Assembly (NCBI GenBank): GCA_951406725.2
Contig: OX597816.1
Location: 46,252,001 to 46,316,000, forward strand
From: Octopus vulgaris
Taxonomy: Eukaryota
Length of the DNA stretch: 64,000 nucleotides
Direction: 5' to 3'
The notes under the pieces are model-generated. The model saw nothing but the letters and a program-made list of their open reading frames with translations, was not told where the DNA came from and made no database searches. Below, one piece after another: positions 21,558-43,854 of the stretch. The position numbers and the translations under genes are program-made. How positions within the stretch are numbered: the first letter of the stretch is position 1; each line of letters starts with the position of its first letter.

Positions 21558-21895
21558 TTACGGAGATGTACTTGCATAGCGAGTGACTTGATCTGAGATC
21601 GTGTGCTGGAACGAAAACAATTGCAGCGTGGAAGGTGTTTATAAGCCATTTAAGAAACACACAAAACCGTTAGATTCACTTCAACATTTAAATTTAATTT
21701 GTCAAAATATTTTCGTCGCTTTGAGACAAAACTGACAAAACTTCGTGATGCAGCACGAAGTTTTGTCAGCGAACAGGTTGCGGTCTCAAATCGACAAAAA
21801 TATTTTGACAAATTAGATTTAAGTGTTGAAGTGAATCTAACGGTTTTGTGTGATTCTTAAATGGCTTATAAACACCTTCCACGCTGCAATTGTTT
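21558..21895. mobile_element. Fold-back element containing a decayed G3-C8 hammerhead-like motif
   Basis: Arms 21615-21727 and 21783-21895 are inverses with few mismatches; central hairpin ctgacaaaacttcgtg-atgcag-cacgaagttttgtcag; unpaired extension 21558-21614. Confidence 0.8.
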
Positions 21896-22377
21896 ATGTA
21901 TATATGATTTAGATTAAAGTGTTAGGTGAGTACAGAGTGTAATATGAAATTTGAAGAAGTGACAAGGGAACAAGGATTGCATGCTCAACTGTCACTGTCA
22001 TTCCATTAATTTTATATTACACTCTGTAATTGTCTAATGCTTTATTTTGAAGCATGTATATTGAGTTCTGACAGTGGATTATTAGTGTTGCTATGCCTAA
22101 GCAAAATCCTTATGTGTATATAAATGTGCCTTTCTATATATATATACACATACAAATGTGTGTGTGTGTGTGTGTAGATACAGATAGGAAAGTAGATTGA
22201 TTGACAGATAGACAGACAGACCAGTCGATGACCCAATATATGTGTGTGTGTGTAGATATAACCCTATTCAGTAACCAAAAATGCTCAACTTTAATAAATT
22301 ACAGTCTATGTTACAAGCTCTCTTTACTCTTTTAACTCTTTTATTTGTTCATCTGTTCCTCTCTTTCTCTTTTTTTT

Positions 22378-22778
22378 CTCTTTTACTTGTTTCAGTTATT
22401 TGACTGTGGCCATGCTGGAGCACCACCTTTAGTCGAGCAAATCGACCCCAGGACTTATTCTTTGTAAGCCCAGTACTTATTCTATCAGTCTCTTTTGCCA
22501 AACCGCTAAGTTACGGAGACGTAAACACACCAGCATCAGTTGTCAAGCGATGTTAGGGGGGACAAATACAGATACACAAACACATACACACATATATACA
22601 TATATATATATACATATATATGACGGGCTTCTTTCAGTTTCCGTCTACCAAATCCACTCACAAGGCTTTGGTCGGCCTGAGGCTATAGTAGAAGACACTT
22701 GTCAAAGGTGCCACGCAGTGGGACTGAACCCTGAATCATGTGGTTGGTAAGCAAGCTACTTACCACACAGCCACTCCT
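22378..22778 (-). mobile_element. SINE family A
   Basis: Full family A body ending accacacagccactcc. Confidence 0.92.
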
Positions 22779-22956
22779 TGAGTTTTTCTTTTTTTTTTTT
22801 TTTGTTTTCTTTTTGTTCTAAGAAGCCAGCATGCTTCAGGCTTTGGTGCAGTTTCCATCTACCAAATTTCACTTGTAAGACATTTGTCAGTCTGAAGCTA
22901 AAGTAAAAAATTTATTACCAAGTTTTCACACAGCAGGATTGAACCCAGAATCATAT

Positions 22957-23530
22957 TGTAGGGATTTGAACCCCAACCCTGAGATATTCAGTTAAGGGTC
23001 GTGAATAATCTATCACCGTTTCATGTGATCAATCTCTAAATTGATCAATCAGCATGAAGCTATGGCGTGATATGGCTCTTCACATTATCTAAAATTTGCT
23101 TGCTTTTCACCCTGTAAAAACTGTTTGGTGCCAACTCAGCCAAATGGTCTCAGCAGGTGGCTAATACAAGACAGCCTCAGGCATTTGCATAGACCACTTT
23201 GGGCACTCACAGAAGGCAGACTGCTAAGACCAGACCACTTTTGGCATTCAGACAGATCACTTTGAGTAATGACAACTCCAGACACCCACACATGATATAC
23301 CACATGTAACCTTCTACAGTTACAGCATGGTTCTCTCCTCCCAGTCAGTGGTTATATTATCAAACATCTTTATTTTGTAAACAGCCAATGCAATAAATCA
23401 TGTTCAGCAATAAATATGTTAAAAGTTAAAAAGTTTGTGAGCTGCTTCATTTATTATGCATGCAGCTAGCTAGACCGCATGACGATGGTCTCTACAGCAT
23501 CCGCCACCACCAAACATTCTCCTCACAGCA
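22957..23530 (+). mobile_element. Solo LTR (574 bp, Gypsy-like 4-bp TSD) inserted in an old SINE
   Basis: TG...CA ends, ATAT duplicated on both sides (22953-22956, 23531-23534), AATAAA at ~23392 and ~23408. The interrupted SINE reads aatcatat|ggtt across the insertion. Confidence 0.75.
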
Positions 23531-25235
23531 ATATGGTTACAAAACAAACCTCTTACTCACAGAGTCATATCTGTGCTAATGATTGTTAATCACAAAGAAA
23601 TATCAATCTTCAAGTTGAAACCTAGCTTTAAAGGTTTGTATTCTGTGTTCATTAGCTTTTATTCTTCTGATTAGATTATTTAATAAAAATATTTCTCATG
23701 ATGACTGAAATCTAATTAATACTATTTTCTAATATTTTCTGCATATATTATTAGCGATGATTTAAAATGGAGTTCTTTCACTTGCTTTTATCTACTTGCT
23801 GTCCACCTTTGATTTCTCGCTCTTTAAGATTTAAAATAAAATAAGAAACTGTCATTATCCTACATTACTTAAAGAATTTAGATTTAGTATGCTTATTGTT
23901 TTTATTTTCATTCTTTTATTATAATTTCCATTTCAGCTCATGAGGTTTCTTTTTTGTTTTTAAATCTTACAAATTGAGTCAGTAATGAGAAAGGAAATGT
24001 TAAAAAGAATCTGTTTTCTGAATTCCAGCTTAATCCACTGATAAAACTTCATTCAATGATAATATCCTTAATTCCTTTGATAACTTTAATCCTCTAATCT
24101 AATCTTTACACTATCTCTATAACTGTCATTACAAAAGTAAATTACCATATTGCTCAACTTGTTAACATTGCTTCACAATTACATTACCTTATTAATCATT
24201 AAGCACTTCAATTCAATTATTATTTGTAATAATATGAATTCAAATTCAAATTAATATTAATGAGTTGGTAAAGGGACCATCATAAAAATTAAAGTTTTAT
24301 CAAATCAACTGTCAGCAACTTCATTTTGTAATGGGCCATTGTTGATTTTCTTTTATGCTTGCTTATTTAAGGGCCACTGTCAGTCAATGATTACCATGCA
24401 TCTGCACATGTATGTGCAAGTCTAGATGAAATTTTTCAAGGAAGATTAGCAAGTTTTATGTCCATATGCTCAATGTTGTCCAAGAGATAACCCATTACTT
24501 GAGGGCTGATACAGTTTGGCACAAGTACCATCTCAAGTGTGGCTGTCAGAATGTGAAGATCTAAGAACAGGTACTGCAAGGCATTGTCTCCGACACTAAC
24601 AATTCCACCAACCACTACCATGGATTGGTAAAAGGCAAACGTGACTTCACTGGAATTTGAACTCAGAGAACAAAATTGCAATAAATACCACAAGGCATTC
24701 ACTCTAATGACCTGACCAGTTTACTGTCTTCCTTGCCTGTCTGTGTCATATAAGGTAGCGAGCTGGCAGAAATGTTAGCATGCTGGGCAAAATGTTTAGC
24801 AGTATTTCGTCTGCTTTATGTTCTGAGTTCAGATTCCGCCAAGGTTGACTTTGCCTTTCATCCTTTCAGCGTTGATAAATTAAGTACCAGTTGCATACTG
24901 GGGTCGATCTAATCAGCTAAAAAGTACCAGAGTTAAGAAAAATAAATGAGTACTGGGGTCCATTTTGTTAGTTAAACCCTTTAAGGCAATGCCCCAGCAT
25001 GGCCACAGTCCAATGAGTGAAACAAGATAGATAAGTATCTACCCACTTTGCCATCACTTGCAATGTGTACATAAGCAAAAATAAAGTAAGTTGTGCCACA
25101 AAAGACTATCTAAACCCATTGATGGCCCACAAATACAATAAATTTGAAAAGTTTATTGGAACGATGTGAGGCCCACAGAGAACATTTCATTGGTCCATAT
25201 GTGGGCCGTGGTCCTCTTGTTACCAACTTCTGTAT

Positions 25236-25465
25236 TAACCCTTTAGCATTCAAATTACTCTATTAAATGTAATGCTTATTTGTTCTCTTTGCTTTGAATT
25301 AATCATTGCATTATTTCATAGCTTCAAGATTTCAATGAGGTGACAGTTTATTTTTAGAATGACATTGTAGGAAAGGCATGAGAGGCTGGATCTGGCTTGT
25401 TTGAACATAAAACAGGTAGAATATTTAGGCCAGGTATGGCCGGTTTGAATGTTAACGAGTTTAGC
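25236..25465. mobile_element. piggyBac-like MITE
   Basis: ttaa-ccctttagcattcaaa at left; decayed inverse tttgaatgttaacgagttt at right. Confidence 0.55.
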
Positions 25466-25807
25466 CTCTAGACCTGTTAACACACCATCTGAAGATTTGA
25501 TGTCATATTCCATTCTATATTTTTAAATCCTGGAGTAGAAAAGAATAATAATAATTTATTATTCTTTTCTACTCCAGGCACAAGACCAGAAATTTTTGGG
25601 GAGGGGGCCAGTTGATTAGATCGACCCCAGTATGCTGCTGGTATTTAATTTATCGATCCTGAAAGGCAAAGTCAACCTTAGCAGAATTTGAACTCAAAAC
25701 ATAAAGACAGACAAAATACTGGTGTGCTAATGTTTCTGCCAGCTCACCACCTTTAAATATTATTATTATTATTAATATACAGTGAGTAAACATCAATCAT
25801 GTTGGCT

Positions 25808-27125
25808 CATGGTGCTGGGTTCAGTCCCACTGTGTGACACCTTGGGCAAATGTCTTCAACTATTGCCTCTGGCTGACCAAATCCTTTTAAGTGGATTTGA
25901 TAGATGAAAGCTGAAAGAAACCTGTTGTATACATACACACACACACACACATGTGTGTGTGTGTGTGTCTTTGTGTCTGTGTTTCCCAACTTGACAACTG
26001 GTGTTGGTGTATTTACATCCCTGTTATTGAGTTGTTCAGCAAAAGAGACTGATAGAATAAGTACCAGGTTTAAAAAAATAAAAATAATTACTGAGGCTGA
26101 TTTGTTTGACAAAAAAATTCCTCAAAGGTGGTGCCCCAGCATGGCCTCAGCCTAATGACTGAAATGAGTAGAAAGAAAGAAAAAAGAAAGTTAAACATCA
26201 CATTTTAAGGATGATTTAATGAAGAACCAAAATTCGAACCTTTTACATGTAGACTCATTTATCACCGCTTCATTTATCACTGATCCACGATAATGTGGTA
26301 TGCTCAATTGTCATCTTTGTTATGCTTAGTATGGATTGATCTGTGATTACATTGAGCAGCGATCAGTTGAACATTCTGCTTGTACTGCAGAAATGTGCCT
26401 CAGCAACCACCCATAATACTTAGCTTCCCAGAATACATTGATTATTGTTCATGTTTTCATGACTAAGCAGTGAGGCTGTGTATTTCTTATATATGTGGAT
26501 TTATTTACTTGTACCCATCAACAAGGGACCAGTAAACAGAAAAATATATGAAGGTGCCCGATCCTAACAAATGATGCAGATGAGTGTTTTCTCTACAGGG
26601 ATAAGTAGAGATAATCAAGAAAATATATGACTGTGGAAGCTTCACTATGGGTTTGGTGCCAATGAATTTACCATTATACATGCAAGCATGCCTTGTAGGT
26701 GCAGGCATAGCTTATAGGTGCCGGTGTGGCTGTGTAGTAAGAAATTTGCTTCCCTACCACATGGTTCTGGGTTCAGTCCCACTGCATGGCACCTTTGGCA
26801 AGTGTGTTCTACTTTAACCTCAGACCAACCAAAACCTTGTGAGTGGATTTGGTAGATGGGAGCTGAAAAAAACTTCATTGTATTTACCATTTTATTTACA
26901 CACACACACACACGTATTTATGTGTGTGTGTCTTTGCGTTTGTGCTTGTCCGCCATCACTGCTTCACACCTGGTGTTGATTTATTTATATCTCTATAATT
27001 TAGCAGTTCAACAAAAGACTGATAGGATAAAATAACTACTGAGGTTGATTTGTTTAAGCAAACCTTTCAAGATAGTAGCCTGGCATGGCTGCTGTCCAAT
27101 GAGTAAACCAAGAGAAAGATAAAAG
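25808..27125 (+). mobile_element. Two family A-related SINEs (25808-26190, 26717-27125)
   Basis: gggttcagtcccactg..tggcacctt...gtggatttg.tagatgg...tgtgtgtgtc body in both. Confidence 0.8.
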
Positions 27126-27169
27126 ATTTGTTTCATTTACAAAGAAAAAGAAAAAAGTAAAGTTACCTT

Positions 27170-27407
27170 TTTGAGTTGCACCTACTCATAAGGTCTGTTT
27201 TCCCAGTTTCATAGCATATAAATTCTCCTCTTGGATGAGACACCAGTCTGTCACAGGTTTACTCATTTTTGTCAGCTGAGTGGACTGAAACAATGTAAAA
27301 TGAAGAGCTTTGCTCCATAACACAACACTCTGCCTGGTCCAGGAATCAAATCCACAATCTTATGATCATGAGTCCAACACCCTATCCACTAAGCCATGCA
27401 CCTCCAC
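27170..27407 (-). mobile_element. tRNA-derived CORE-type SINE (family C)
   Basis: Minus-strand head tgtggaggtgcatggcttagtgg; same family as 56185-56435 and 48475-48800. Confidence 0.75.
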
Positions 27408-27539
27408 AAAGTGCATGGAAATAATTCCTTTATCACCATTTTTTTTTTAACCAAACCCCTGTGATAAACAAGTATAGGTATATTTGATAAACAGTTCGAT
27501 CACTGATTTACTTTAGTACATATTTTATCAATGTTGACT

Positions 27540-27928
27540 AGGCATAGGAGTGGCTGTGTGGTAAGTAGCTTGCTTACCAACTACATGGTACCGGGTTCAG
27601 TCCCACTGCATGGCACCTTGGGCAAGTGTCTTCTACTATAGCCTTGGCCCAACCAAAGCCTTGCGAGTGGATTTGGTAGATGGAAACTGAAAGAAGCCCA
27701 TCGTATATATGTATGTGTGTGTGTGTCTGTATTTGTCCCCCAACATCGCTTGACAACTGATGCTGGTGTATTTACGTCCCTGTAACTTAGCGGTTCAGTG
27801 AAAGAGACCAATAGAATAAGTACTAGGTTTACAAAGAATAAATCCTGGGGTCGATTTGCTCGACTAAAGGAGGTGCTCCAGCATGGCCACAGTCAGATGA
27901 CTGAAACAAATAAAAGAGTAAAAGAGTA
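27540..27928 (+). mobile_element. SINE family A, full length
   Basis: Head ggcataggagtggctgtgtggtaag (A box), gggttcagtccc (B box), tail aaaagagtaaaagagta. Confidence 0.93.
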
Positions 27929-28931
27929 TGCAGTAGGTATGTGGTTATTTTGAAAATACCTCATGGAGTGATGACTATGCTTTACACAGTTATGGATTGC
28001 CCTTTGGCAAGGTATAGCACCCGTTGGCTACCCTGCCAGGTATATGGCAAAGAAATGGGACTGCAGCATGGTGGATTGTGAGGAGGTAGTGGAAGAGCTC
28101 AACTGAGCCAACAGGGCTCCTTACATTGATGCTGAGTGGAGGAATTAGAGAAGTTCAACAGACAGGATCCACCAAGCTGTCAGGAGAGTAACTGCAATGC
28201 ATCCATAGGGGCAAGCATCCGTGGTTGTATAATCAGCTAGTGGAAAATTCACCATGACTCAATCAAGCTCCCGATTCAAATTCATAATAATGGAATTGGA
28301 TGGTGACAAAGAGTCATGGGAATCCATGAAAATAGCATGTCAGAAAAGACTATGCAAGAAGGTAAAAGAGTCAAGCATTTGTAGATTATGAGTTCAAACC
28401 TAGCATAAGCAATTTGTTCTGCCTCTGTGTAACAATACACTTTATTTTACATTGCTGTCATTCACTTAACTGTTGGCGGTCATATCTATACCAATGGTGT
28501 ACAACTACCTCAGACCACAGTCTACTAACCATCTCTACTTTCTGTGTTCAACAGACCTTAAGCATTGAAGTCCTCTCCTACCATGTAGAATTCAATTATA
28601 CATCTTTGTCTTCTTCCCAATCACACTTAAGTTTGTGGCAATAATTGATTTACTCAAGACCATCTTTTATACATGGTTGTGCAGATTTCCCCTTCAGTTG
28701 CTCCATCAAAGGAAGTGTAGAAAATTAAGATTCGACTAATGGTGAAGAAGAAATACATAGGAAATTGCTACAAACTATTTAATTCTATAGAAAATACAAA
28801 ATAGGAATATCTATATTCCAAGTACTGAGTTTTCTAGCAGATAATATTTCCACCCTTACAGAATGTATACATGTACATGATTTACAATTCCTACATTATG
28901 GTATATATATATATATATAGCAATGATACAT

Positions 28932-28999
<68 letters not shown>

Positions 29000-29242
29000 T
29001 TGCTATTATGTTAAACTGTTGTATGTCCAAATTTGGCCAAATGCATTTTTTTTCAATATTTATTTTTCTTGCAATAGGTGACTCTTTTTTGTCAGACTAT
29101 TGTATCTCCAGCTGCTTCAGATGCCAAGATATCAAAAATTGTCAAAGTGTAGTACAATGGTTTTGCTATGGAATGGTGACACTATTTTTTTCATTTTCTG
29201 AAAAAGCAATGTTTTGGACTTATGACACTCTTGCAGTAATAC

Positions 29243-29296
<54 letters not shown>

Positions 29297-32070
29297 TCAT
29301 CATCATCATCATCATCATTTAACGTCCATTTTCCATGCTGGTATGGGTTGGACACTTCGACTGGGCTCTGTGAAGCCAGGAGGCTGCACCAGGCTCCAAT
29401 CTGATCTGGCAGTGTTTCTACAGCTGGATGCCCTTCCAAATGCCAACTACTCCGAGAGTGTAGTGGGTGCTTTTTACATGCCACCAGCACAGGAACCAGT
29501 CGGGGCGAGGGGGCTGGCATTGACCACGTTTGGATGGTGCTTTTTATGTGCCACCAGCACGGGGAGCCAGTCAGGCAGTGCTGGCATCAGCCACAACTAC
29601 AATTTCCATTTGATTGTGGTTTGATTTGATTTTGATGTTCACCCCCATTACAGCCTTGGTTACCAAGGTAGCAGAGGTTATTGACTACTTCCAGTTTCTC
29701 CCCCTGCATGTGATGGAATCTATTTTCTGAACATCTGTGGTTTACTGTCCCTGTGTATCTGCTGCACATAAAAGCTATCTTCCCAGTTAATCTTCCTTTG
29801 ACGTTGTTGCACCTCTTATGCATCCATAGCTTACACTGGGTACATCTTATGGAGTTTCTTCCTAGACCTTTTCTACAGATCAAACAGGGCCATTTACCTG
29901 AAGGGTGTGTGATGCGTTCACCTTCCTACTTACTAGGACTTTGGTTTTTGAAACATTGACTCTAATGCCCTTCGATTCTAAACCTTGCTTTCACACCTGT
30001 AATCTCTTCTCTAGTTCTGGTAGTGATTCTGCTATGAGGGCCAGGTCATCATCATAGAGGAGTTCCCAGGGGCAACCTGTCTTGAATTCCTCTGTTATTA
30101 CCTGGAGGACTATGATGAATAAGAGGAGGCTGAGGGCCGATCCTTGCTGGACCCCTACTTCTACCTGGAATTTTTCACTATACTCATTGCCAACCCTAAC
30201 TTTACTAATGACATCTCTGTATAGGGGCTGTACAGCCCTTATTAACCATTTGTCAATCCCTAGTTTCCACATCACCCATCAGATAAGGAATTGGAGGACC
30301 CTGCCAAAGGCTTTCTCCAAGTCAACAAAAGCCAAGTATAGGGGTTTATCTTTGGCTAGGTATTTCTCCTGCAGTTGCCATACCAGAAATACAGCATCAG
30401 TGGTGCTTTTACCTGGCACAAAACTGAACTGCATCTCATCTAAGCAGACTCTCTCCCGAATTAGATGGGCTATGACCCTCTCCATAACCTTCATCACCTG
30501 ATCCTGCAGTATGATACCTCTGTAGTTATTTCTATCTAAAGTATCATTTTTACTCTTGTAGCAGTTGACTATTGTGTTGCTATGCCAGTTATTGGGTATG
30601 ACTCCATCATGAACTACCTGGTTTACAATACGGTTGACTAGGCCATAACCCACACCACCAGATATTTTAAGCATCTTAGCAGTGATTCCTGATGGGCCAG
30701 GGGCTTTTTCTGTCTTCATACCCTTAATTGCTTTATCTATCAGGGTGCTGTCTATTTGGATAGCTGGTCCCTCTACTTGGTCAACATTTGGCAGGCTCTC
30801 CTCCCATTCATTCTCCATGTTCAGCAGTCTTTCATAATGGCTTCTCCAAGCCTCTTTTTTTTCAGAATCATTAAAAGCAAGTACACCATCATCCATGCGG
30901 ATATGTTTCTCTCCTGTGTTAACATAATTTTCTCTCACACATTGTCTTGCAATCTAAAATACTTCAGTTCTTTTGTCCTCACGTCGCTGGACATTGGCAA
31001 ACTTCTTATCTGCTTTTCCCTTTGCTATGTATACCTGTCGCCCAGCCTCCCTCCTGGCTATCTGGTACGGTTCTCTGCTACTCACACTCTTCCAAGCTTT
31101 CCAGGCCTGTTTCTTTGCTCTAATGGCTTTATCTACTGTATTATTCCACCACCATGTTACTCTAGGTCTGGAAGGGACTTTGCACCATCTGCAGACTTGG
31201 TCTGTGGTACTTAGTAAGCTGTCCTGGAGGAATTTCCAGCTACCCTTGTCCAAGGTCTGTAGCTCCTCTCTCTCATCAAATTTCTTGATAACGATGTCCC
31301 TAAATTTCTGACCATGTGAAGGGTTCTTTAATTTCCAAATCCTTCTTTTCTGGATTGGTCTGCTTCTTGGCATCCTTCTGACCTTGAGTCCAAAGTCACT
31401 AAGGACTAATCTATGCTGGGGGGTACATTCTTCATCCGGGAGGGTCTTTATATTTAAGAACAACCCTGTGTACTGCTGTCTGGTGAGGATGAAATTAATC
31501 TGGCTAGCAGAGTCACCTGATTGATATCAGGTGGCTGCCTGCTTCCTGAAGTTAGTGTTGCAGATTAAAAGGTTACATGCATCACAGAATTCCAGTAGCC
31601 TAGTTCCTTCTTCGTTTTGGGAACCAATACCATGGCTCCCATATACACCAGTGAAGATACCGGATTGCCATCCAGTATGACCATTAAAATCTCCAGCCGC
31701 TAAGATGAGGTCATTGCCACTCATCTTTGAGGTAGCCTGTAGGAGGGTATCATAAAAATGGTCCTTCTGATCATTTGGTAGGTCTGCTTGTGGGGCGTAG
31801 GCAGAGGTAATTGTAGCTGTACTGTTCTGCAGGACTAGCCTGAGGTGAAGAACTCTATCGCATACCCTGACAACCTCTATGATCTTAGCCACCCATTTCT
31901 CCATGTTACCTTGCCAGAAGATTTTATACTTATGTGCCTTGCCTGTGAATCTCCTCTCCATCTTACCTCTTGTATGCAGCATACATTGACATGTCTCCTT
32001 TCAAACATCTCTACAATCTCACTAGACCTACCTTTCAGTGTAACTACATTAACAGTGCCAACTCTGAAAA
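29297..32070 (-). mobile_element. Decayed RTE-clade LINE (APE endonuclease + RT + 3' tail)
   Basis: SAYAPQ, AGDFNGH (APE); NYRGI, LAFVDLEKAF, GVQQGSALS, ELLYDDDLAL (RT); CRKGLGRNSIRCTQC; 3' tail ending (TGA)n at 29297-29317. Many stops and frameshifts. Confidence 0.93.
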
Positions 32071-32222
32071 CTGGAGAAGGAATGTGGGGCAGGCTTGTGG
32101 AGGAGGGATGTTATTCAGCACCTGAAAAGAAGAAAGAGGTTTTGTGTTTGTTTGTTAGACATGCTTCACCTGTTCTCACTTCCGACCTGACTTCATTCAA
32201 ACATTCAAGTGTGTTAAGATTG

Positions 32223-32259
<37 letters not shown>

Positions 32260-32439
32260 TATATGCATATATGAATGTGTTTGTGTGTGTGTGTATGTGT
32301 AATATAAATTATTAAAACTTTTTAAGTTACAAAACAATTTGTCATGGTATTAGCAAGTTCTTGTTGTTAAATAAGATTTCATCAAACTATTTCTCGGTCA
32401 TATATACGGTCACACACGCACACATATATATTTATATAT

Positions 32440-33390
32440 GTATTTATATATCAAGGAGTCTCTCCAGGTCAAGGCTCTACTTCTCTGCTTTGGGAAGGCA
32501 CACACCAATACCATGGACATCTTATTGAGTTTCTACGTATGCCTTTTCTACAGATCGAGCGGGGCCATCTACCTGAAAGGATTTATGATTTGTCTGCCTT
32601 CCTACTTACTAAGACGTTGGTTAACTCTAGGTTAACTCTAAGCCCCTTCAATTCTAGACCTTGTTTCCACACCTGAAACTTTTTCTCTACTTCTGGTAGT
32701 GACTCAGCTATTAGAGCAAGATCATCTGCATAGAGGAGCTCCCATGGGTAACCTGTCTGAAATTCCTTTGTTATTGCCTATGATGAATAAGAGGGGCCTG
32801 AGAACTGGTCCTTAGTGAACCCCTACTTCTACCTGGAATTCTTTGCTATACTTGTTGCCAACCCTCCCATTATTGACAGCATCCCTGTACATGGCTTGTG
32901 CAGCTCTCACCAACTCATCTATCCCTAGTTTCCACATTGACCACCAGATAAAGGATTGGGAAACCCTGTCAAAAGCTTTCTCCATGTCAACAAAAGCCAA
33001 GTACATAGGTTTATCTTTGGTTCGGAATTTCTCCTGCAGCTGTTTTACCAGAAATATAGTATCAATAGTGCTTCTCCTGGCAGAAATCCCAACTGCATCT
33101 CATCTAAAGTAACTCTCTCTCTAATTAGTTGGGCTATGACCTTCTCCATGACTTTCATCACATTGATCCAACGATTTGATGCCTCTGTAACTATTTCTGC
33201 CTAAGGTGTCACCATTACCTTTGAGGCAGTTGACTATGGTGCTGCTACACCAGTCATTGGGTATGACTTCATGTATCACCTAGTTAACTATACGGGTGAC
33301 TAGACTATGGCTTAAACCGCCAGATATTTTAAGCATCTCAGCAGTAATTGCTAATGGGCTGGGGGCTTTCTCCGTCTTCATACCCTTATA
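32440..33390 (-). mobile_element. Second decayed RTE RT fragment
   Basis: YLAFVDMEKAFDRV, EFQVEVGVH, LLYADDLAL; parallels 29850-30725. Confidence 0.88.
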
Positions 33391-33689
33391 TATATATATA
33401 TATATATAAATTTTAAATATCATTGCAATACAATAGTATCACTTTCCAGGTAAATAAATCACTGTAAAGGTAGAATAATAAATAAGAAATAGTGGTACAA
33501 TGAGGCACCTATGTTTGCTGAAAATAGAAGTCAATTACGATACGATGCTATGTAAAGTTTCACTGAAATGCATACTGGCAAAGAAGTATGTGGGTAGCAA
33601 ACTTAAATTTTTGTTTTGCCTTTAGGAAGAACATTGGGAAATGGATAATCTAGGACCTGAATTTCAGACTTTCCAATATATGTTTATAT

Positions 33690-33930
33690 TTCGTTTTGGG
33701 ATTTGGTTTGCAAGATTCTTTATATGAGTTTGTGTGTTGAAGCATATTCTGTTGTGTCTGGGGAGAGTCATTTTCTTTTTGTGCTTTATTATGTAACACA
33801 CTCACTGGTAAAATTTCTACTTATTCCTTATTTTTATCTTCCTAAAATTTTCGTTGTGTCTTGCAACCTTTTCAATAGTCTTACATTATAAGGCACAAAA
33901 AGAAAATGACTCTCCCCAGACATGACACAA
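33690..33930 (-). mobile_element. Fold-back fragment with a U3-A8 hammerhead-like motif
   Basis: 33755-33789 is the inverse of 33888-33922; minus-strand motif at 33841-33880. Confidence 0.65.
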
Positions 33931-34089
33931 TATATGTTTGTTATCATAAATTTGATTAGTCCTCATCAGCTAGATTCACAGGAGAAAAAATTTTAAAATA
34001 TTGCTACATTTTTGGCTGTACACCTAGCTGTTAACAGAACCAAGATTAGTGAAAAAGTTTTCTATGAAAATTTTAAATATTATTGCAAT

Positions 34090-34470
34090 TGTGTGGTAAG
34101 TAGCTTGCTAACCAACCACACGGTTCCGGGTTCAGTGCCCCTGCATGGCATCTTGGGCAAGTATCTTCTGCTATAGCCTCGGGCCAACCAAAGCCCTGTG
34201 AGTGGATTTGGTAAACGGAAACTGAAAGAAGCCTTGTCGTATATATGTATATATATATGTATGTGTGTGTATATGATTGTGTGTCTGTGTTTGTCCCTCC
34301 AACATCTCTTGACAACCGATGCTGGTGTGTTTACGTCCCCGTAACTTAGCGGTTCGGCAAAAGAGACCGATAGAATAAGTACTGGGCTTACAAAGAATAA
34401 GTCCCGGGGTCGATTTGCTCGACCAAAGGCGGTGCTCCAGCATGGCCACAGTCAAATGACTGAAACAAGT
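34090..34470 (+). mobile_element. SINE family A
   Basis: Family A body followed by an A-tract. Confidence 0.92.
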
Positions 34471-34822
34471 AAAAAAAAAAAAAAAAAGTATCACTTTCCA
34501 GCCAAATAAATCACCATAAAGGTAGAATAATAAATAAGAAATAGTGGTACAATGAGGCAACAATGTTTGCTGGAAATAGAAGTCAATAATGATACGGCGC
34601 TATGTAAAGCTTCACTGAAATGTATACTGGCAAAGATGTACCATTATTTCTTATTCATATAAAGTTAAAAGAAGAAATGATACTGGAAACTGGTGCTGCT
34701 CTCTGGTATGCAAAAAGGCTGAAATACATCTGGCATTCTTGCTGGCCACTACTGAGCAATATACATACATACATGCACACACATTGCTATTAAGGAACAT
34801 ACACACATGCACATATCTCTCT

Positions 34823-35167
34823 CTATCCGCTCAGTCGAAGTCGACTCTCGGTCACTCGTTGGATCAGTGTCCTCCAGTCAGTTCTATCCTGGGCCATTTC
34901 CTTCAGTCTGGCCATGTCCATTCCAGTATTACTCCTGATGGTGTCAAGCCAGTGGGTTCTTGGTCGGCCTCTTCCTCTCTTGCCACTGACCATTCCGAGC
35001 ATGATGTCCTTCTCCAGGGATTCTCTCCACATAATATGACCGAAATATGCCAATCTACGCTTGGTGATCCCAGCTTCTAACGACATTTTCGGCCTTATCT
35101 GCTTAAGAACTTCTCCATTGGTGAGCCTCGCTGTCCATGGAATCTGCAAAAGTCTTCTCCAACACCA
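34823..35167 (-). mobile_element. BovB-like RTE LINE, 5'-truncated 3' end
   Basis: Open frame WCWRRLLQIPWTAR...YFGHIM...SLEKDIMLG...GKRGRGRP..WLD...AQDRTDWR...VTESRLRL, the characteristic BovB/RTE C-terminus. Confidence 0.9.
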
Positions 35168-35581
35168 CACACACGCACACACACACACATACACACACAC
35201 ACACTGCCATTAAAGAACATACACACATCCTCATCATCATCTATTTTAATGTTCACTTTCCCATGCTGGTATGGATTAAATGGAGTTTATTCTTAATATG
35301 ACAGATTATCTATTGTCAGATGCTCTTCCTGTCACCAACCCAGCATGTTTCTCAGAAAAGTGAAGGAGGAGGAGGATGTATGCAGTATGCACAGGTGAGG
35401 TAGTATTAAACTAAAATAGCTATTTATGTATCATACTGAATGTATAAACACTTACTGTGGTATTCGTCCCGAGATAACGTTTCTCATGGATGTGGTGTGT
35501 TAAAAACACAATAAATATCAGATGAAAATTCATCTCAGTAGTAGCCAGTGAGAATGCCAGATGTATTTCAGCCTTTACAGG

Positions 35582-35638
<57 letters not shown>

Positions 35639-35781
35639 GTGAGTGTGTGTGTGTGTGTGTGTGTGCATGTGGATAGATAGATAAATATTTAGATGGATAG
35701 ATTGACATATACATTGACAGAGCTAAATAAATGTTTGTCTCTGTAACTTGTTTCATCTTCAAAATCGAAGCTCAACAAATA

Positions 35782-35824
<43 letters not shown>

Positions 35825-35977
35825 GCATCTGCAAATACATACATACATATGCATGTGTGTAAGTATGTATGGGTGTGCATATGCATGCATATACATGTGT
35901 ATATATATATATATATATATATACTTGTATATGTGTGTGTGTGTATATACATACATACTTTTGTATGTACAGATATG

Positions 35978-36016
<39 letters not shown>

Positions 36017-36439
36017 GAGTATAAGTGGCATACATGCATACACACACACACAAAAGCCTGAATACATGCCTATATACATCTTCACCTACATTTATGCAAA
36101 GAATACATCTACAACAACACACACATTTGTGTGCGACCAATCTCTTTGTGTTAAAGACATGCATGCAACAATGACTTATATATTCAGATCCACTCAATTA
36201 TCCAAAAAGACAAACATATAATTACTCAGGGCAATTTCAGGCGCATATAACTTGGCATACACCATAGCAGGGGTAGTAGTAAGGGCAGTGGGTTGTTGCA
36301 GGGGTTGTCAGGTGATGCAGGGGCTCTCGCTATGAGTCTTACAACTGCGTGAGGCTGGTTAATTATTATTTTAGGGCAATTAACCATTTCACACTCCATT
36401 ACAAACTAACAATCCGTGAACAACAGCCTTGCAGCTCCA

Positions 36440-36710
36440 CCTCCAATATCCGTCAACACTACCACAGCCACCACCACTACCACTCTCACTAACACTACTC
36501 CCATGACCACTGCTATTGTGACTGCCAATACCACTACAGCTGCTGCCACCCACCATCACCATCACCACCATAATCACCACATACCAGCAGCAGCACCAGC
36601 ACCACCACCACACACCATACCACCAACACCACCACCATACTACTACTACTACTACTACCACCACCATTCGCCACCACCACTACCACCAACACTGCCACCA
36701 TCATCACCTC
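36440..36710. repeat. Degenerate (ACC)n/(ACT)n trinucleotide tract
   Basis: Visible directly; produces the poly-T/H/P ORFs. Confidence 0.85.
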
Positions 36711-37247
36711 TGACAACACAAACACAATTAGCCAAAACAGAACAGTAACCTCTAACATGGTCACTCAACATGCTAGATATAGCAGCCAAATCTCTCTAAA
36801 TCATACACAAACCATGTTAAAAAGAGCAGAGTCATTGGACAATATAGATTCACAAATAATAATAAACACAAAATGAACAAATAATATATTGTCGTCGTTG
36901 TCGTCGCCATCATCATCATTATCCGCTGTATTAATGTTCACTTTTCCATGCTTGCATTGGGTTGAATGGAGTTTATTGTTATTGTGACAGATTATCTACG
37001 GTTGGATGCTCTTCCTGTCACCTACCCAGAACATGTTTCCCAGCAAAGCAATATTTCTCCATGACCAGACATGTTTTCACAGAATATTGGAAATGAACAA
37101 TGTTGATTTATAACAATTACACAATGTCAAAACAAATGGGCATAAGCACACACTTACACACACACACATGCACACATGTGTAAGTGTATATATATTTATA
37201 TAAAAACTTACTTGGAAAAAGATGCATGGCGTTTGATCATATAATAA

Positions 37248-37550
37248 TCATCATCATCATCATCGTTTAGCGTCCGTTTTCCATGCTAGCATGGGTTGGA
37301 CGGTTCAACTGAGGTCTGGGAAGCCAGAAGGCTGCACCAGGCCCAGTCTGATCTGACAATGTTTCAACGGCTTGATGCCCTTCCTAACGCCAACCACTCC
37401 GTGAGTGTAGTGGGTGCTTTTTACGTGCTACCAGCACAGGTGCCAGACGAGGCTGGCAAACGGCCACGATCGGATAGTGCTTTTTACGTGCCACCGGCAC
37501 GGGGGCCAGGTGAGGCTGGCAACGGCCACGAACGGATGGTGCTTTTTACA
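37248..37550 (-). mobile_element. RTE-associated 3' tail element
   Basis: Reverse complement of ~19960-20272. Confidence 0.85.
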
Positions 37551-38104
37551 TGAGATATATGCATATATACATACATTTATGTACATACCTATGTATATAT
37601 ACATGCATATATGGGTACAGGACATCAAAAAAACATTAAACACAATGAGAAACGAAAGCATAAAAACAAAAACATAGAAACGAACTTTTTTTTGGAACAA
37701 CGAAAAAACAAACAGAATATTCCCCTCCTTCAGTTGCCCCTGTTTCATCTACTCCATGTTTCGAAGGCAAAATATATATATATATATATATATATACACG
37801 TGTGTGTGTATGTATGTATATCTATCTGCATACATATACACACACACACATATATATATATGATGGGTTTCTTTTAGATTCCATCTACCAAATCTCACAA
37901 AGATTCAATAAGCCTGAGGCTATAATAGCAAACACTTGTCTAAGGTTCCATGGATTGGGACTGAACCAGAAATCATGTGGTTGAGAAGCAAGCTTCCTAA
38001 CTACTTAGCTATGCCTGCACACACACATATATAACATACATACATACATACATACATAGCCTGACAGACAAGAAGACAGACAGACAGAATGACAGATAGA
38101 TGGA

Positions 38105-38590
38105 TAGTTTCCTTTATTAGCCATGCAGGGCTGAACACAGAGGCGACAATACAATGTAGAACTTTTCTTTTCGAAAGGGAAAAAAATACCACCAAAAGGG
38201 ATTGAAAGCATTTGGGACATGTAAACAGTGAAATAACAATGTTCCTTTTATAATAGAGTTCCCAAAAGGGGGAGTAAAAATGTAATACAGATTAGGTTTA
38301 ACAATGGAAAGAAAAGCGTACGAGAAAGACCACGGTAACCTCAGGCAGGGAAAGAACACATGAGAGCAAAACACTCTCTCTCTCTCTCTCTCTTCTGGAT
38401 TTACAGGATCATACTCAAAGTAGATAGATAACTTTCTTTATTGGCCATACAGGGCTGAAATATAGAGGGGACAAATACAAATGTAGAACTTTTCTTTTCG
38501 AAGATGGAAAAAGAAAAAAAGGAAACAAATATAAAATTCCGATCAAAAGGGATCGGGAAAAAAAAAAGCGATCAAAAGGGATCGTGTATC
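38105..38590 (-). mobile_element. Two Tx1/L1-like LINE 3' end stubs
   Basis: Minus-strand tails ...ttcagccctg(c/t)atggc(t/c)aataaag(g/a)aa resemble the ends of 55329-56165 and 60880-63562; both abut (GATA)n-type repeats. Confidence 0.55.
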
Positions 38591-39291
38591 AGATAGATAG
38601 GTAGATGGATGGACGGACGGACGGACGGACGGACGGACGGATGTGATTTGTTGTAATGAAGTTAAGAAGTTTGCTCGCTTTTCAACAATTATGATTCTTA
38701 GTTTGGACCATAATGTGGCATCTTGAGTGAGTATCTTCTACAGTGTGTGTGTGTGTATGTGTCAGTGTGCATGTGTTCATCAGTGTAAAATGGTGTGCTA
38801 AAATGCATTAAAAGTATAACTTAATCATTTGATATATATAGGGATCTATAACAAAAATGCCAGACAGGAATAAGTACTGGGATAGTCGTATTATATCATC
38901 ACCTAAAATCCCTTGAAGGCAGTGCCCCAGCATGGCCACAGTCCAATGGCTAAAACCAGTAAAAAAAATACATATACACAGATACGCATATGTACATATA
39001 TACACATGCACATATATACATACACACATTACATACGTATGTATGTGTGTGTGTGTATTGACAGTAATTTCAGAATTTCTTTAAGTATTTGGCTTATTCT
39101 ATCCGTATTTAGTCCTTTATTCAAATAACTCTGCTGTTTTTTATGCATATAAAGATGCTTATTTTCAAACACTTCATACATATACATACATATGTTCATA
39201 TATGTATGTATACAAATATGTACACATAGATGCACATATATGTGTGTGTGTGTGTGTACATGTGTGTGTATATATATATTTTTATTTATTA

Positions 39292-39343
<52 letters not shown>

Positions 39344-39499
39344 CATATGTGTGTGTATGTATATATAGTTAGTTACTTTGATACATAGAGTGATAGGTAG
39401 ATAGATTGATAGCTTATCTACTGATATAAATATAGATATGCACACAAAGGTATTTTGACACACATGCACATACACCCACACACACACCCACACCCAAAG

Positions 39500-39511
39500 C
39501 AGTTACGTAAA

Positions 39512-39579
<68 letters not shown>

Positions 39580-39595
39580 TGTATATATATATATG

Positions 39596-39626
<31 letters not shown>

Positions 39627-39741
39627 GTATATATATGTATGTATATATATATGTATATGTATATATATGTATATATATATGTATATATATATATATGTAT
39701 GTATGTATATGTATATATGTATATATATGTATATATATATG

Positions 39742-39772
<31 letters not shown>

Positions 39773-39787
39773 ATGTATATATGTATA

Positions 39788-39846
<59 letters not shown>

Positions 39847-39934
39847 GTATATATGTATATATATGTATATATATATATGTATATATATGTATATATATGT
39901 ATATATATATTATATATATATATATGTGTGTGTG

Positions 39935-39968
<34 letters not shown>

Positions 39969-39975
39969 TATATAA
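39500..39975. repeat. (TG)n/(TA)n compound microsatellite
   Basis: Visible directly. Confidence 0.95.
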
Positions 39976-40809
39976 AGATCTTAAAGTAAAAATATACCAA
40001 AAATAGGGAACATTAACTTTTTGTCAGGAAGTTCTTATCTGGAGATGTTTCTATTTATAGAATCTCGAAATACATTCTTAGATTATCAAAAAATTGATTT
40101 GGCTACAAGCTGACAGTTTCTTTGAGAAACTAAAAGACAGATGTGTGGAATGAATGAAGGAACAAATAAGTAAATAAATAAATATATAAATAAATAAGTT
40201 TTAATAGAATATCATCAACAATAAGAGACAGCCTGAAAAACTAAAGCAAACAACAAGGAGGAGGAGGAGGTAGCGGAAGTGAAGGAAGAGGAGCAGAAAA
40301 GAAGAACAACCATTAATAATAATAATAAGAAGAAGAAGAACAACAAGGGCAATTATAATATGAGGATTGTTAACAACAACAATAGCGGTTGAATCTCCTT
40401 TAAATGACATCATGTCATGAAAAGAGAGGGTTATGTTGAATGATGTGGTGTTGGATGCAGTGCCCTTGGAAAGAGGATGGTCATGACTGGAATGCCTTTG
40501 GACATAGATCTGATCAATCAGAGCAGACCTGGAGTTAAAAAAACAACAACAAAAAACAAAAAAAAAAGCAACAATGATAGCATCACTGTTACCGCTACCA
40601 GTAACAACCATGCCAAAACTGTCAATAACTACAGAAGAAGCAGTAGTAACAACAACAAGAACAACAAGAGTATGTGTATTATTGGCTTGAATGGTTAATC
40701 ATTTGCCAAGCTGTATTGATACAAGATTTAGTTGTGTTGTCAAAAGATGTAATATGAGAAGAGAGAAATGGAATTAATGGACTAGTTGAACTGAAGGTGG
40801 ACTGGGGAA

Positions 40810-40956
40810 AGAGTTGCTGAAGCATGGAATAAACTGCCTGCGTCAGTTGTTGACTGCCATGACACTGCATCCTTTAAGGCCCTCATGCTTTCCGAAACTA
40901 CACCTGATTATATATACACTTTAGATGAGTTGTAGTGCACCTGAGCACTGTACACA

Positions 40957-40990
<34 letters not shown>
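40810..40990 (+). mobile_element. CR1-like LINE 3' end with (ATT)n tail
   Basis: Encodes RVAEAWNKLPASVVDCHDTASFK, the WNxLPxxVV..SFK C-terminal motif of CR1-clade ORF2. Confidence 0.75.
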
Positions 40991-40992
<2 letters not shown>

Positions 40993-40999
40993 TATTATA

Positions 41000-41462
41000 A
41001 ATCTGGATTGAAACAGGATTGAAGAGGTGGAACTGGATTGAAGAATGGTTGGGGAAAGACTGAAAAAGGACTGGTGTAAGACTAATGAATGACTAAAGAA
41101 GAACTGAAGAATGACAAGTAAGATTGAAGAAGAACTGAAGGACTTAAAGAACGGGCAAAGTCAGATTGAAGGAAGACTGAAGAACTGAAGAAGGTCTGAA
41201 GAAAGGTTGATGCTGAACTGAAGAAGGACTGGAGAAGTGTTGAAGCTAGGCTAAGGAAATACTGAACTGAAGACGGAATGAACCAAAAAAAAAAAAAAAA
41301 GAACTGAAGAAAGGCTGAACAGAAAGACTAAAGTTGGATTGAAGAAGGATTGAATTGATGAAATACTGAACTGAAGTCAAAAACCAACTGGAAAAAGACT
41401 GATTTGGGCAGAGTTGGACTGAAGAGAAACTGTAGTTTGATGAAAAAAGGATTGAAAGAGGA
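41000..41462. repeat. Purine-rich degenerate ~11-bp tandem repeat
   Basis: Recurrent gaagaactgaa / ggattgaagaa units. Confidence 0.7.
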
Positions 41463-41994
41463 ATTTTCAATATCAATCTATTTTTCTAATTTTTGCTTTC
41501 TACATTTCATTTTTACTATATATTTTTTCTTTCCTTTCTTTGTGCATTTGTTGTAGAGTTGTTTCTTGGGGGTTTTTTTAGCCCCTCAACTACCCTGCTG
41601 ACCACTTATTGTGTAGATATACGATTGCATGAGTTCCATCTGTGACCATCCCTCTTGTTTTACCAATATAGTGACTACATTACCCAATATGTTCTTCAGC
41701 TATTTTAAAGATAGTAGTGTGTGTGTGTGTGTGTGTGAAAGTGAGAGAAACCTAGAGCTTCACAAAAAAGACAATATTAATAATTCTTTCTATTATAGGT
41801 ACAAAGCTTGAAATTTTGAGGGAGAGGACTAGTCAATTACATTGACCTCAGTGCTCAAATGGTAGTTATTTTATCGACCCTGAAAAGAAGAAAGGATAAA
41901 GTTGACCTTGGCAGAATTTGAACTCAGAATGTAAAGCATTTTGTCCAGCGTGCTAACAATTCTGCCTGCTTGCAACCTTTTCAATATTGATAGT

Positions 41995-42380
41995 GGAAGC
42001 ACTCTGTCGGTTACGACGATGTGGGTTCCGATTGATCCGAATCAACGGAACAGCCTGCTCGTGAAATTAACGTGTAAGTGGCTGAGCACTCCACAGACAC
42101 ATGCACCCTTAACGTAGTTCTCGGGGATATTCAGCGTGACACAGAGAGTGACAAGGCCGGCCTCTTGAAATACAGGTACAACAGAAACAGGAAGTAAGAG
42201 TGAGAGAAAGTTGTGGTGAAAGAGTACAGCAGGGATCACCACCATCCTCTGCCAGAGCCTCATGGAGCTTTTAGGTGTTTTCGCTCAATAAGCACTCACA
42301 ACGCCCAGTCTGGGAATTGAAACTGCGATCCTATGACCGCGAGTCCGCTGCCCTAACCACTGGGCCATTGCGCCTCCACA
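41995..42380 (-). mobile_element. tRNA-derived SINE (family C) with TSD
   Basis: Minus-strand head tgtggaggcgcaatggcccagtggttagggcagcgg; aatattgatagt duplicated on both flanks. Confidence 0.88.
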
Positions 42381-42712
42381 ATATTGATAGTAATCACAAT
42401 ATTAATAATTCTTCCTAATTTAGGTACAAGGCCTGAAATTTTGGTCGAAGTGGCCAGTTCATCTCATTGACCCTAGTGCTGATACTATTTTACAAAGCCT
42501 GAGAGGATGAAAGGCTAAGTCGATCTCGGTGGTATTTGAACTCATAACATAAGGCCAGAAGGAATGTTGCTAATGTCCAGTGTGCTAACAATTCTGCCAG
42601 CTAACAACCTTTTCAATATCGATAATAATCACAATATTGATATGTTGTTATATTTCAGGATGGTCATTTTTTCTCTTGCCAAATTAGCACGCACACACAC
42701 CACACACACATA

Positions 42713-42751
<39 letters not shown>

Positions 42752-42753
<2 letters not shown>

Positions 42754-43147
42754 CGTAGGAGTGGCTGTGTGGTAAGTAGCTTGCTTGCGAACCACATAGT
42801 TCCGGGTTCAGTCCCACTACGTGGCACCTTGGGCAAGTGTCTTCTACTATAGCCTTGGGCCGACCAAAGCCTTGTGAGTGGATTTAGTAGACGGAAACTG
42901 AAAAGAAGCCCGTCGTATATATGTATATATATATATGTTTGTGTGTCTGTGTTTGTCCCCCAACATTGCTTGACAACCGATGCTGGTGTGTTTATGTCCC
43001 CGTAACTTAGCGGTTCGGCAAAAGAGAACAATAGAATAAGTACTAGGCTTACAAAGAATAAGTCCTGGGGTCGATTTGCTCGACTAAAGGCGGTGCTCCA
43101 GCATGGCCACAGTCAAATGACTGAAACAAGTAAAAGAGTAAAAGAGT
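42752..43147 (+). mobile_element. SINE family A, full length
   Basis: Head ggcgtaggagtggctgtgtggtaag to tail aaaagagtaaaagagta. Confidence 0.93.
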
Positions 43148-43194
43148 ATATATTCATTCTTCACTCGTTTATTATTATTCTTACCTTATGTTCA

Positions 43195-43241
43195 TTGTCT
43201 GGAAATCTTTTGTCACATATTTGTGACCTCTTCAGTGACTC
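43195..43241 (-). ncRNA. Decayed minimal hammerhead-like motif (C3-G8)
   Basis: Minus strand: gagtca CTGAAGAG gtcaca-aata-tgtgac AAAA gatttc cagac. Perfect 6-bp stem II; G12 lost (CpG-type change); stem I poor. Confidence 0.55.
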
Positions 43242-43854
43242 TTTCATCCCACATGTATCCTCCTGTTCTGCTGTTTAGTCCATCCTTTTCAATAGTGGTT
43301 TCAAATTTTGGTACAAGGCCAGCAATTTCAGGGGAGGGGATAAGTTGACTATATTGGCCTCAAAGCTCAAATGATACTTATTTTTATCAACCTTGAAAGG
43401 ATGAAATGCAAAGTCGACTCCAGCAGCATTTGAACTCAGAATGTAAAGATGGACAAAATGCTGCTAAGCATTAGGCCAGGTGTGTTAATGATTCTGCCAC
43501 AACACTAACATCAGCCTCCAAAATTTTCAACCAGAAGTCTAATATCTAACTCTATGCAAAGTACTTCCACTCCTCACTCAACTTCACTCACAAGAGTCTT
43601 CTGCAAGTTATTTTGTCATGACAATAAGAGAGCTGCTATGTGATTGCTCAACTTTCCTCATATCAAAGTCAAACTTTCTTCATATCAATCACACCATACT
43701 GCCTTAAAAGGAAAATACACATTCGATAATGTACTTGTCATATACCAATAAAAATGAGCTGGCCACATCAGGGATGTCTTTGATCATAACTCTGCCCCAT
43801 TTTCAAGATTGATCTGAAGCTAAACATTATCAACCACCACCGCTCTACCAATAT

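What the first reader, a model, noticed from the sequence alone, without database searches (positions are those of the whole stretch)
21762..43241. Hammerhead-like motifs whose cores co-vary at the 3:8 tertiary pair (C-G, U-A, G-C)
Seen: three separate repeats share one geometry (stem I, N-TGAA-N'-AG, stem II starting gt, GAAA, very short stem III, UH, stem I). 43195-43241(-): CTGAAGAG gtcaca/tgtgac. 33841-33880(-): cta TTGAAAAG gttg/caac GAAAATTT tag. 21762-21812(+): tttgtca GCGAACAG gttgc/tcgac AAAAATATTT tgacaaa, where the opposite arm of the same palindrome supplies gcgacGAAAATATTTtgaca. Established: C3 and G8 form a Watson-Crick tertiary pair and residue 8 contributes its 2'-OH to catalysis, so compensated swaps can keep activity. 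Minimal hammerheads with palindromic stem III are typical of Penelope-like pseudo-LTRs. Inference: these are natural U3-A8 and G3-C8 ribozyme lineages that CUGANGA-based scans would miss. Caveat: the individual copies are decayed (U4 to C and G12 to A at 21.8 kb; G12 to A and a poor stem I at 43.2 kb).
Basis: partly seen in the sequence, partly recalled or inferred. Interest (0 to 1): 0.85.

Follow-up and report, generated by a model that had tools for sequence, protein, structure and literature searches.

The report
Octopus retrotransposon hammerhead with inverted core
The three motifs are worn-down ends of three related Penelope-like jumping genes whose hammerhead-shaped RNA motifs use three different base pairs (C-G, U-A, G-C) at one core position; the U-A form is already published, whereas the G-C form, kept in a recently copying element and predicted to cut itself only weakly, was not found in the papers searched.

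Summary
Confirmed and extended. Each motif is a decayed copy of a high-copy repeat whose other copies restore the hammerhead core. All three are 3' ends of sister Penelope-like retroelements (PLEs) in a likely octopus genome. The G3-C8 motif lies about 1 kb behind a reverse transcriptase + GIY-YIG frame in 10 of 10 long-frame loci, which are 98-99.9% identical, so the family copied recently; 6,905 core matches genome-wide. With positions 3 and 8 left free, PLE-linked metagenome contigs gave 31 of 32 complementary pairs (16 U-A, 15 C-G), none in shuffles; the pair switched at least four times on a tree. U3-A8 is published for PLEs (PMC4209133) and elsewhere (PMC3088659). A natural G3-C8 was not found in seven searches, but two key papers were unavailable; an unchecked scan note mentions G3-C8 in a phage. 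Cleavage is untested: the engineered swap gives only partial rescue, the dimer helix is weak, and the window's copies are mutated fossils.

The parts
21558..21893 (.). Family 1 fold-back PLE end: about 60-nt one-sided tail (21558-21616) plus a 277-nt palindrome, in TA-rich flanks
   Evidence: 95% and 88% identity of the two arms to the 3' end of the autonomous element
21762..21812 (+). Family 1 hammerhead motif, G3(21769)-C8(21774), extra G, 5-bp stem II, palindromic AAUAUU stem III, U17 at 21805, 7-bp stem I; this copy has U4>C and G12>A
21558..21750 (-). Family 1 sense arm with tail; 9-nt deletion removes most of the 5' core and one stem II strand
33679..33933 (-). Family 2 PLE end with short inverted piece (33881-33933) and tail
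33841..33880 (-). Family 2 hammerhead motif, U3(33875)-A8(33870), AAUU stem III, U17, 3-bp stem I; core intact, one stem II mismatch
43147..43270 (-). Family 3 PLE end, cut short at its 3' side by another interspersed repeat
43195..43241 (-). Family 3 hammerhead motif, canonical C3(43235)-G8(43230), 6-bp stem II, C17, bulged stem I; this copy has G12>A

Best explanation
The three motifs are decayed 3' ends of three sister Penelope-like retrotransposon families, each ending in a minimal type I hammerhead motif whose 3:8 core pair is C-G, U-A or G-C, and in the parent elements the motif likely cuts the element's RNA slowly, likely as a dimer helped by the element's own protein. Shown: family membership, the link to RT + GIY-YIG frames, the shared geometry, complementarity at 3:8 across lineages, and retention of G3-C8 in a recently copying family. 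Inferred: in full elements two copies of the motif (tandem ends or two RNAs) pair through the palindromic stem III, N3 pairs with N8 so that the 2'-OH of residue 8 reaches the leaving group, and the RNA is cut after U17; selection on this step has kept 3:8 paired through repeated double changes. The copies in this window are truncated insertions with fold-back structure, now decaying without selection; a transcript across the 21.7-kb copy is predicted to form one long hairpin that buries the motif.
For: Family 1: motif within 1.5 kb behind the endonuclease in 21 of 30 loci, 20 of them G-C; identical in all 17 occurrences at 10 loci that I picked for long frames out of 150 rows; those copies are 97.9-99.9% identical; 839-aa frame with DKS, YVDD, CX3CxxC and YIGET motifs. 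Family 2: U3 motif 0.55-1.3 kb behind related RT-EN remnants in 6 of 25 loci (5 U-A, 1 U-G). Family 3: decayed endonuclease about 0.4 kb upstream in L062 and L089 and a young close sister with the same stem II and C3-G8. Octopus families form one clade, bootstrap 100. Free-3:8 scan of 76 metagenome loci: 32 hits in 31 loci, all on the frame's strand, 31 complementary, 0 in 30 shuffles; 18 of 19 aligned motifs paired at 3:8, 9 with changes on both sides, 0 of 500 shuffles as high, slid partners lower. Between family 1 subfamilies loop II and the 5' flank change while core and stems do not; no variant at 3 or 8 reached 4% in contigs of four organisms. Young motif folds into stems I and II with an open core, z -3.6. 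Engineered C3G/G8C partly restores cleavage, also in a PLE hammerhead, which needs its protein (PMC11167929; PMC8495972).
Against: No cleavage data. The whole 3' end of family 1 is conserved (about 94-95%), so an unchanged 41-nt core-plus-stem is only modest evidence of selection on the motif itself. The AAUAUU dimer helix is computed at -0.2 kcal/mol against -7.5 for ACGCGU, and the predicted fold pairs G3 with U17, which resembles the inactive C3-G17 trap discussed in PMC3884650. G-C appears in one lineage only (1 of 19; none in the 76 metagenome loci), so its own covariation rests on one double change. Related sequences inflate the shuffle tests. In Anolis, hammerhead mutants did not block insertion in vitro (PMC11167929), so a dead motif could persist.
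Confidence: 0.62

Rival explanations
1. The family 1 motif descends from a hammerhead but no longer cuts; the G-C pair and stems persist because the fold or sequence serves as a binding site, promoter or splice-region element of the retroelement, or simply because the family is young.
For: Weak dimer helix; G3-U17 pairing; engineered G3-C8 only partly active; hammerhead mutants still insert in vitro; flanks nearly as conserved as the core; a sister family tolerates A9>C.
Against: A double change to a complementary pair at exactly 3 and 8, with all other core positions fixed, is what selection on the tertiary pair predicts; loop II drifts while stems do not; the same pair is complementary in 31 of 32 hits elsewhere.
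Confidence: 0.3
2. The copies in this window act as ribozymes in host transcripts.
For: The 33.9-kb copy has an intact core and folds weakly into stems I and II.
Against: Two copies carry G12>A, one also U4>C; the 21.7-kb palindrome folds into one hairpin at -186.6 kcal/mol; double changes within family 1 look neutral; single minimal motifs do not cut (PMC4209133).
Confidence: 0.04
3. The motifs are chance matches inside DNA-transposon-type inverted-repeat elements.
For: Single decayed copies are near the chance level; family 1 is mostly a palindrome in TA.
Against: One-sided tails, non-palindromic long forms and direct linkage to RT + GIY-YIG frames; strand-specific intact motifs in independent contigs.
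Confidence: 0.02

Closest known systems
Minimal type I hammerheads in pLTRs of metazoan Penelope-like elements (Cervera and de la Pena 2014, PMC4209133)
   Same: Position near the element's 3' end, extra nucleotide between 9 and 10.1, G10.1-C11.1, palindromic stem III, short stem I, single scattered copies and opposite-strand pairs; U3-A8 families in Schistosoma mansoni; an intron acceptor just before stem I as in Drosophila virilis Penelope (here inferred from sequence only).
   Different: G3-C8 core; none of the representatives in its Figure S3 text begins with G3 (supplement parts 1-2 read). The extra nucleotide is G in all four octopus families, against H in that consensus. No cephalopod is listed.
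Natural U3-A8 core variants (Perreault et al. 2011, PMC3088659)
   Same: Compensated change at the 3:8 tertiary pair in nature.
   Different: The passages read name only U3-A8; here three states occur within one clade of sister elements in one genome.
Engineered C3G/G8C double mutant (Martick and Scott 2006 as cited; Anolis PLE hammerhead in PMC11167929)
   Same: Same base identities; partial rescue; protein-assisted cleavage in a PLE.
   Different: Here the swap is natural and fixed in a recently copying family.
Neptune/Nematis-type EN+ PLEs (clade features from PMC8557442)
   Same: C-terminal GIY-YIG, CX2-5CxxC linker, two cysteines between GIY and YIG, TA targets, inverted 5'-truncated copies, tail.
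   Different: N-terminal RWR and DKS motifs recall the Hydra clade; placement against reference sequences was not run.

Membership tests
EN+ Penelope-like element | One frame with RT followed by C-terminal GIY-YIG endonuclease | tested here: met
   839-aa frame at L204 with DKS, YVDD, VYQIKC, YIGET; relatives named reverse transcriptase domain proteins. The window itself holds no coding remnant.
EN+ Penelope-like element | Inverted 5'-truncated copies, one-sided tail, (TA)n targets | tested here: met
EN+ Penelope-like element | Direct-repeat pLTRs flanking a complete frame | tested here: inconclusive
   Partial tandems and inversions seen; no complete upstream pLTR plus start codon was examined
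Minimal type I PLE hammerhead | Core N3-UGA-N-N8-A and GAAA...UH with complementary 3:8 | tested here: met
   Family column counts; not met by two of the three window copies
Minimal type I PLE hammerhead | Extra nucleotide, G10.1-C11.1, stem II of 4 bp or more, palindromic stem III, stem I | tested here: met
   stem I is only 3 bp in family 2 and bulged in family 3
Minimal type I PLE hammerhead | Site-specific self-cleavage after H17, as dimer or with protein | not testable with these tools
   Only assembled contigs were available
Neptune/Nematis clades | CX2-5CxxC linker and CCHH finger in the endonuclease | tested here: met
   CQSNCAVC linker, two cysteines between VYQ and YIG and downstream histidines
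Neptune/Nematis clades | RT phylogeny with reference elements | not tested
   Tree holds no named reference
Hydra clade | No CCHH motif, linker CxCX5C | tested here: not met
   Family 1 protein has CCHH and CX3CxxC
Naiad/Chlamys | N-terminal endonuclease, no canonical hammerhead | tested here: not met
   Endonuclease is C-terminal and a hammerhead motif follows
DNA-transposon MITE | Symmetric terminal inverted repeats without RT link | tested here: not met
   One-sided tail and long non-palindromic forms joined to the RT-EN frame

The most novel reading that the evidence does not exclude
Family 1 carries the first natural, working G3-C8 hammerhead: a fully inverted catalytic tertiary pair fixed in an actively copying animal retrotransposon with thousands of copies, within a clade that has flipped this pair repeatedly, so that hammerhead surveys and profiles built on CUGANGA or UUGANAA miss whole retroelement lineages.
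Probability: 0.4. Interest if true: 0.65.

Novelty: new variant of a known kind. Interest (0 to 1): 0.45.

Why it matters
If it cuts, this is a natural counterpart of the classic C3G/G8C rescue experiment and shows that evolution can cross a double change at a catalytic pair. It gives a ready test series (C-G, U-A and G-C cores in sister elements of one genome, with young autonomous members) for the open question of what hammerheads do for Penelope-like elements. Practically, search descriptors should leave 3:8 free but paired: Rfam listed none of these motifs, although 6,905 family 1 cores lie in this genome.

Tried and rejected
Covariation inside family 1: only 18 of 6,905 cores are changed at both positions; 8 are complementary, 7 of them A-U, the product of two transitions, and none is C-G: neutral decay, no compensation. 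Idea that residue 17 co-varies to avoid pairing with residue 3: rejected, L313 has U3 with A17 and family 1 has G3 with U17. PLE frames beside fold-back copies at L053/L091, L013/L092 and L073/L093 proved to be separate insertions, not the parents. Pfam recognised only 1 of 6 of those PLE fragments, below cut-off; the family 1 frame was not scanned. RNA evidence: no RNA holder listed as such; contigs of four guessed-RNA runs showed no GT..AG joint at the predicted intron and cannot show ends. Viral contigs: no relative. G3-C8 pattern: no match in the 76 metagenome loci. Literature: searches found no natural G3-C8; Lunse et al. 2017 and Przybilski and Hammann 2007 were not held and could report it; figures and bioRxiv supplements could not be seen. 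One search had three rows with wrong coordinates and was replaced. In the tree, L281 was labelled U-A but reads U-G; states of L300, L306 and L315 were read by eye (L306 has G12>A, L315 is decayed).
Full report
Observation. The three strings are present as described. The window lies in a 2.8-Gb genome; the best named relative of the protein found below is from Octopus vulgaris, so an octopus is likely. Taken singly the copies are not striking: Rfam gave no hammerhead among the 150 listed of 160 matches, a strict descriptor finds only the 33.9-kb copy, and a relaxed descriptor that finds two of the three also hits shuffled windows 0.4 times on average.

Families. Each motif belongs to a repeat with thousands of first-look candidates (3247, 3436, 2359; 40 scored each). 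In the fetched copies (counts, duplicate places dropped: 8 of 30, 1 of 30, 1 of 30 loci) the core is restored: family 1 has G3 and C8 together in 36 of 44 arms, U4 in 41, G12 in 41; family 2 has U3-A8 in 26 of 29; family 3 has C3-G8 in 31 of 38, with G12 in 25 and A in 11, as expected from decay of the C11.1-G12 CpG. All have an extra G before G10.1, a 5-6-bp stem II and a self-complementary stem III (AAUAUU, AAUU, AGAUUU). An 18-base family 1 pattern with 3 and 8 free matches 6,905 places, and 95 of the first 100 are G-C. Most short copies are fold-back insertions with a tail on one side, in TA repeats.

Parent elements. A pattern that excludes the palindrome led to longer copies. Upstream of the family 1 motif lie a branch-point-like CTAAC and pyrimidine tract ending in AG about 13 nt before stem I (sequence only; no splice joint seen), a microsatellite-rich stretch, and the end of a GIY-YIG frame. 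A search with that domain gave 150 scored matches; 21 of the 30 fetched loci carry the motif within 1.5 kb downstream, 20 as G-C. At 10 loci chosen for long open frames, all 17 motif copies are identical and G-C, and the frames are 97.9-99.9% identical: a recently copying autonomous family. The 839-aa frame has the RT and endonuclease motifs of EN+ PLEs, with the linker and CCHH features that PMC8557442 gives for Neptune and Nematis (passages read). Family 2 motifs follow related RT-EN remnants in 6 of 25 loci; family 3 follows decayed endonuclease remnants, and a young sister family has the same stem II with C3-G8 and A9>C. Proteins are 47-56% identical over the RT core, tails are homologous, and the octopus families form one clade.

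Covariation outside the octopus. An alignment of 26 relatives fetched 76 metagenome loci (partial scan). With 3 and 8 free and everything else strict, 32 motifs appear in 31 loci, all on the frame's strand, 16 U-A, 15 C-G, 1 A-G (22 distinct strings), none on the other strand and none in 30 shuffles. Many are close kin, so the count of events is smaller: on the 17-taxon tree the pair changes five times as drawn, at least four if a weak node collapses (unrooted, some states read by eye). In an alignment of 19 motifs that I picked to span the lineages, 18 pair at 3:8 and 9 differ on both sides; no shuffle of 500 reached this and slid partners score lower, with the caveat that relatedness inflates the test. 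G-C was seen only in family 1. It is present without a variant above 4% at either position in contigs from four coded organisms. Within family 1 double changes are rare and look neutral.

Mechanism. By established hammerhead chemistry, residue 8 supplies its 2'-OH and is held by a Watson-Crick pair to residue 3; G8C costs about 10^5-fold and C3G partly restores it (PMC8495972, one passage). In the Anolis PLE the same double mutant partly rescues, cleavage needs the element's protein, and hammerhead mutants still insert in vitro (PMC11167929, passages). Metazoan minimal motifs cut only as dimers and slowly (PMC4209133, parts 1-2 of 4 read). The young family 1 motif folds into stems I and II around an open core. 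I therefore infer slow, dimer- and protein-assisted cleavage after U17 in the parent RNA (confidence about 0.6). Against it: the dimer helix is barely stable, G3 can pair with U17 (compare the inactive C3-G17 state in PMC3884650, passages), and the flanks are almost as conserved as the core. The window copies are fossils: two have G12>A, and the 21.7-kb palindrome folds into a single long hairpin.

What is known. Hammerheads in PLE ends are established. Natural U3-A8 is in PMC3088659 (passages) and in Schistosoma PLEs, with about 1,300 hits from a dedicated descriptor; its supplement lists U3 motifs from Schistosoma and Saccoglossus and none with G3 in the parts read (parts 1-2 of 3). The motif table of PMC8557442 lists only C3 cores (supplement part 2). 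A 2026 preprint on retrozymes and PLEs has no passage on core variants or octopus (term search). Seven searches found no natural G3-C8, but Lunse et al. 2017 and Przybilski and Hammann 2007, known to me only from reference lists, were not held.

Verdict. A real feature, largely a known kind. The C-G and U-A families are ordinary members of it; the G-C core in a young autonomous family is a new variant as far as I could check, and is directly testable. Interest 0.45.

Noticed in passing
L092:2215-2290(-); loci L094-L123: A very young PLE family with Hydra-type motifs (717-aa frame, many identical copies, 2.59-kb tandems) ends in a hammerhead-like motif with CCGAAGA, i.e. U4>C, in 30 of 30 fetched loci; the published Hydra-1_Obim has a canonical core.
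   Followed up: partly
L214-L243; L299:2497: The young sister of family 3 has A9>C and an imperfect stem III palindrome; a metagenome relative with U3-A8 also has C9.
   Followed up: partly
G000 contig C16: 30 of the first 100 listed long non-palindromic family 1 copies lie on C16, about 2% of the genome, suggesting a local burst or slower loss of an older subfamily.
   Followed up: no
L172:3815-3862(-), L097:2342-2387(-), L206:8233-8279(-), L161:1928-1977(+): Further hammerhead motifs of other repeats in this genome, two U3-A8 and two C3-G8; parents not traced.
   Followed up: no
window 33961-33969(-) and 43924(-): Isolated CTGATGA cores without an intact GAAA partner; possibly further decayed hammerheads or chance.
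   Followed up: no
window 65-1273: A 220-nt inverted repeat encloses a tandem array of about 120- and 300-nt microsatellite-rich units; part resembles the family 2 3' region at about 71%, which may be low complexity only.
   Followed up: no
L091:8020-8300; L210:1213; L275: These PLE ends often sit inside or next to other PLEs and TA tracts, including one insertion with a 10-nt target duplication in the 3' end of an unrelated PLE.
   Followed up: partly
G000:C2:15437296-15437658: Ten 37-nt tandem copies of the 5' half of the family 2 motif.
   Followed up: no
window 6.8, 16, 22.4, 27.6, 34.3, 43.0, 46, 48, 53.8, 57.6, 58.7 kb: Many copies of one abundant interspersed repeat, recalled as an octopus SINE; not examined.
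   Followed up: no
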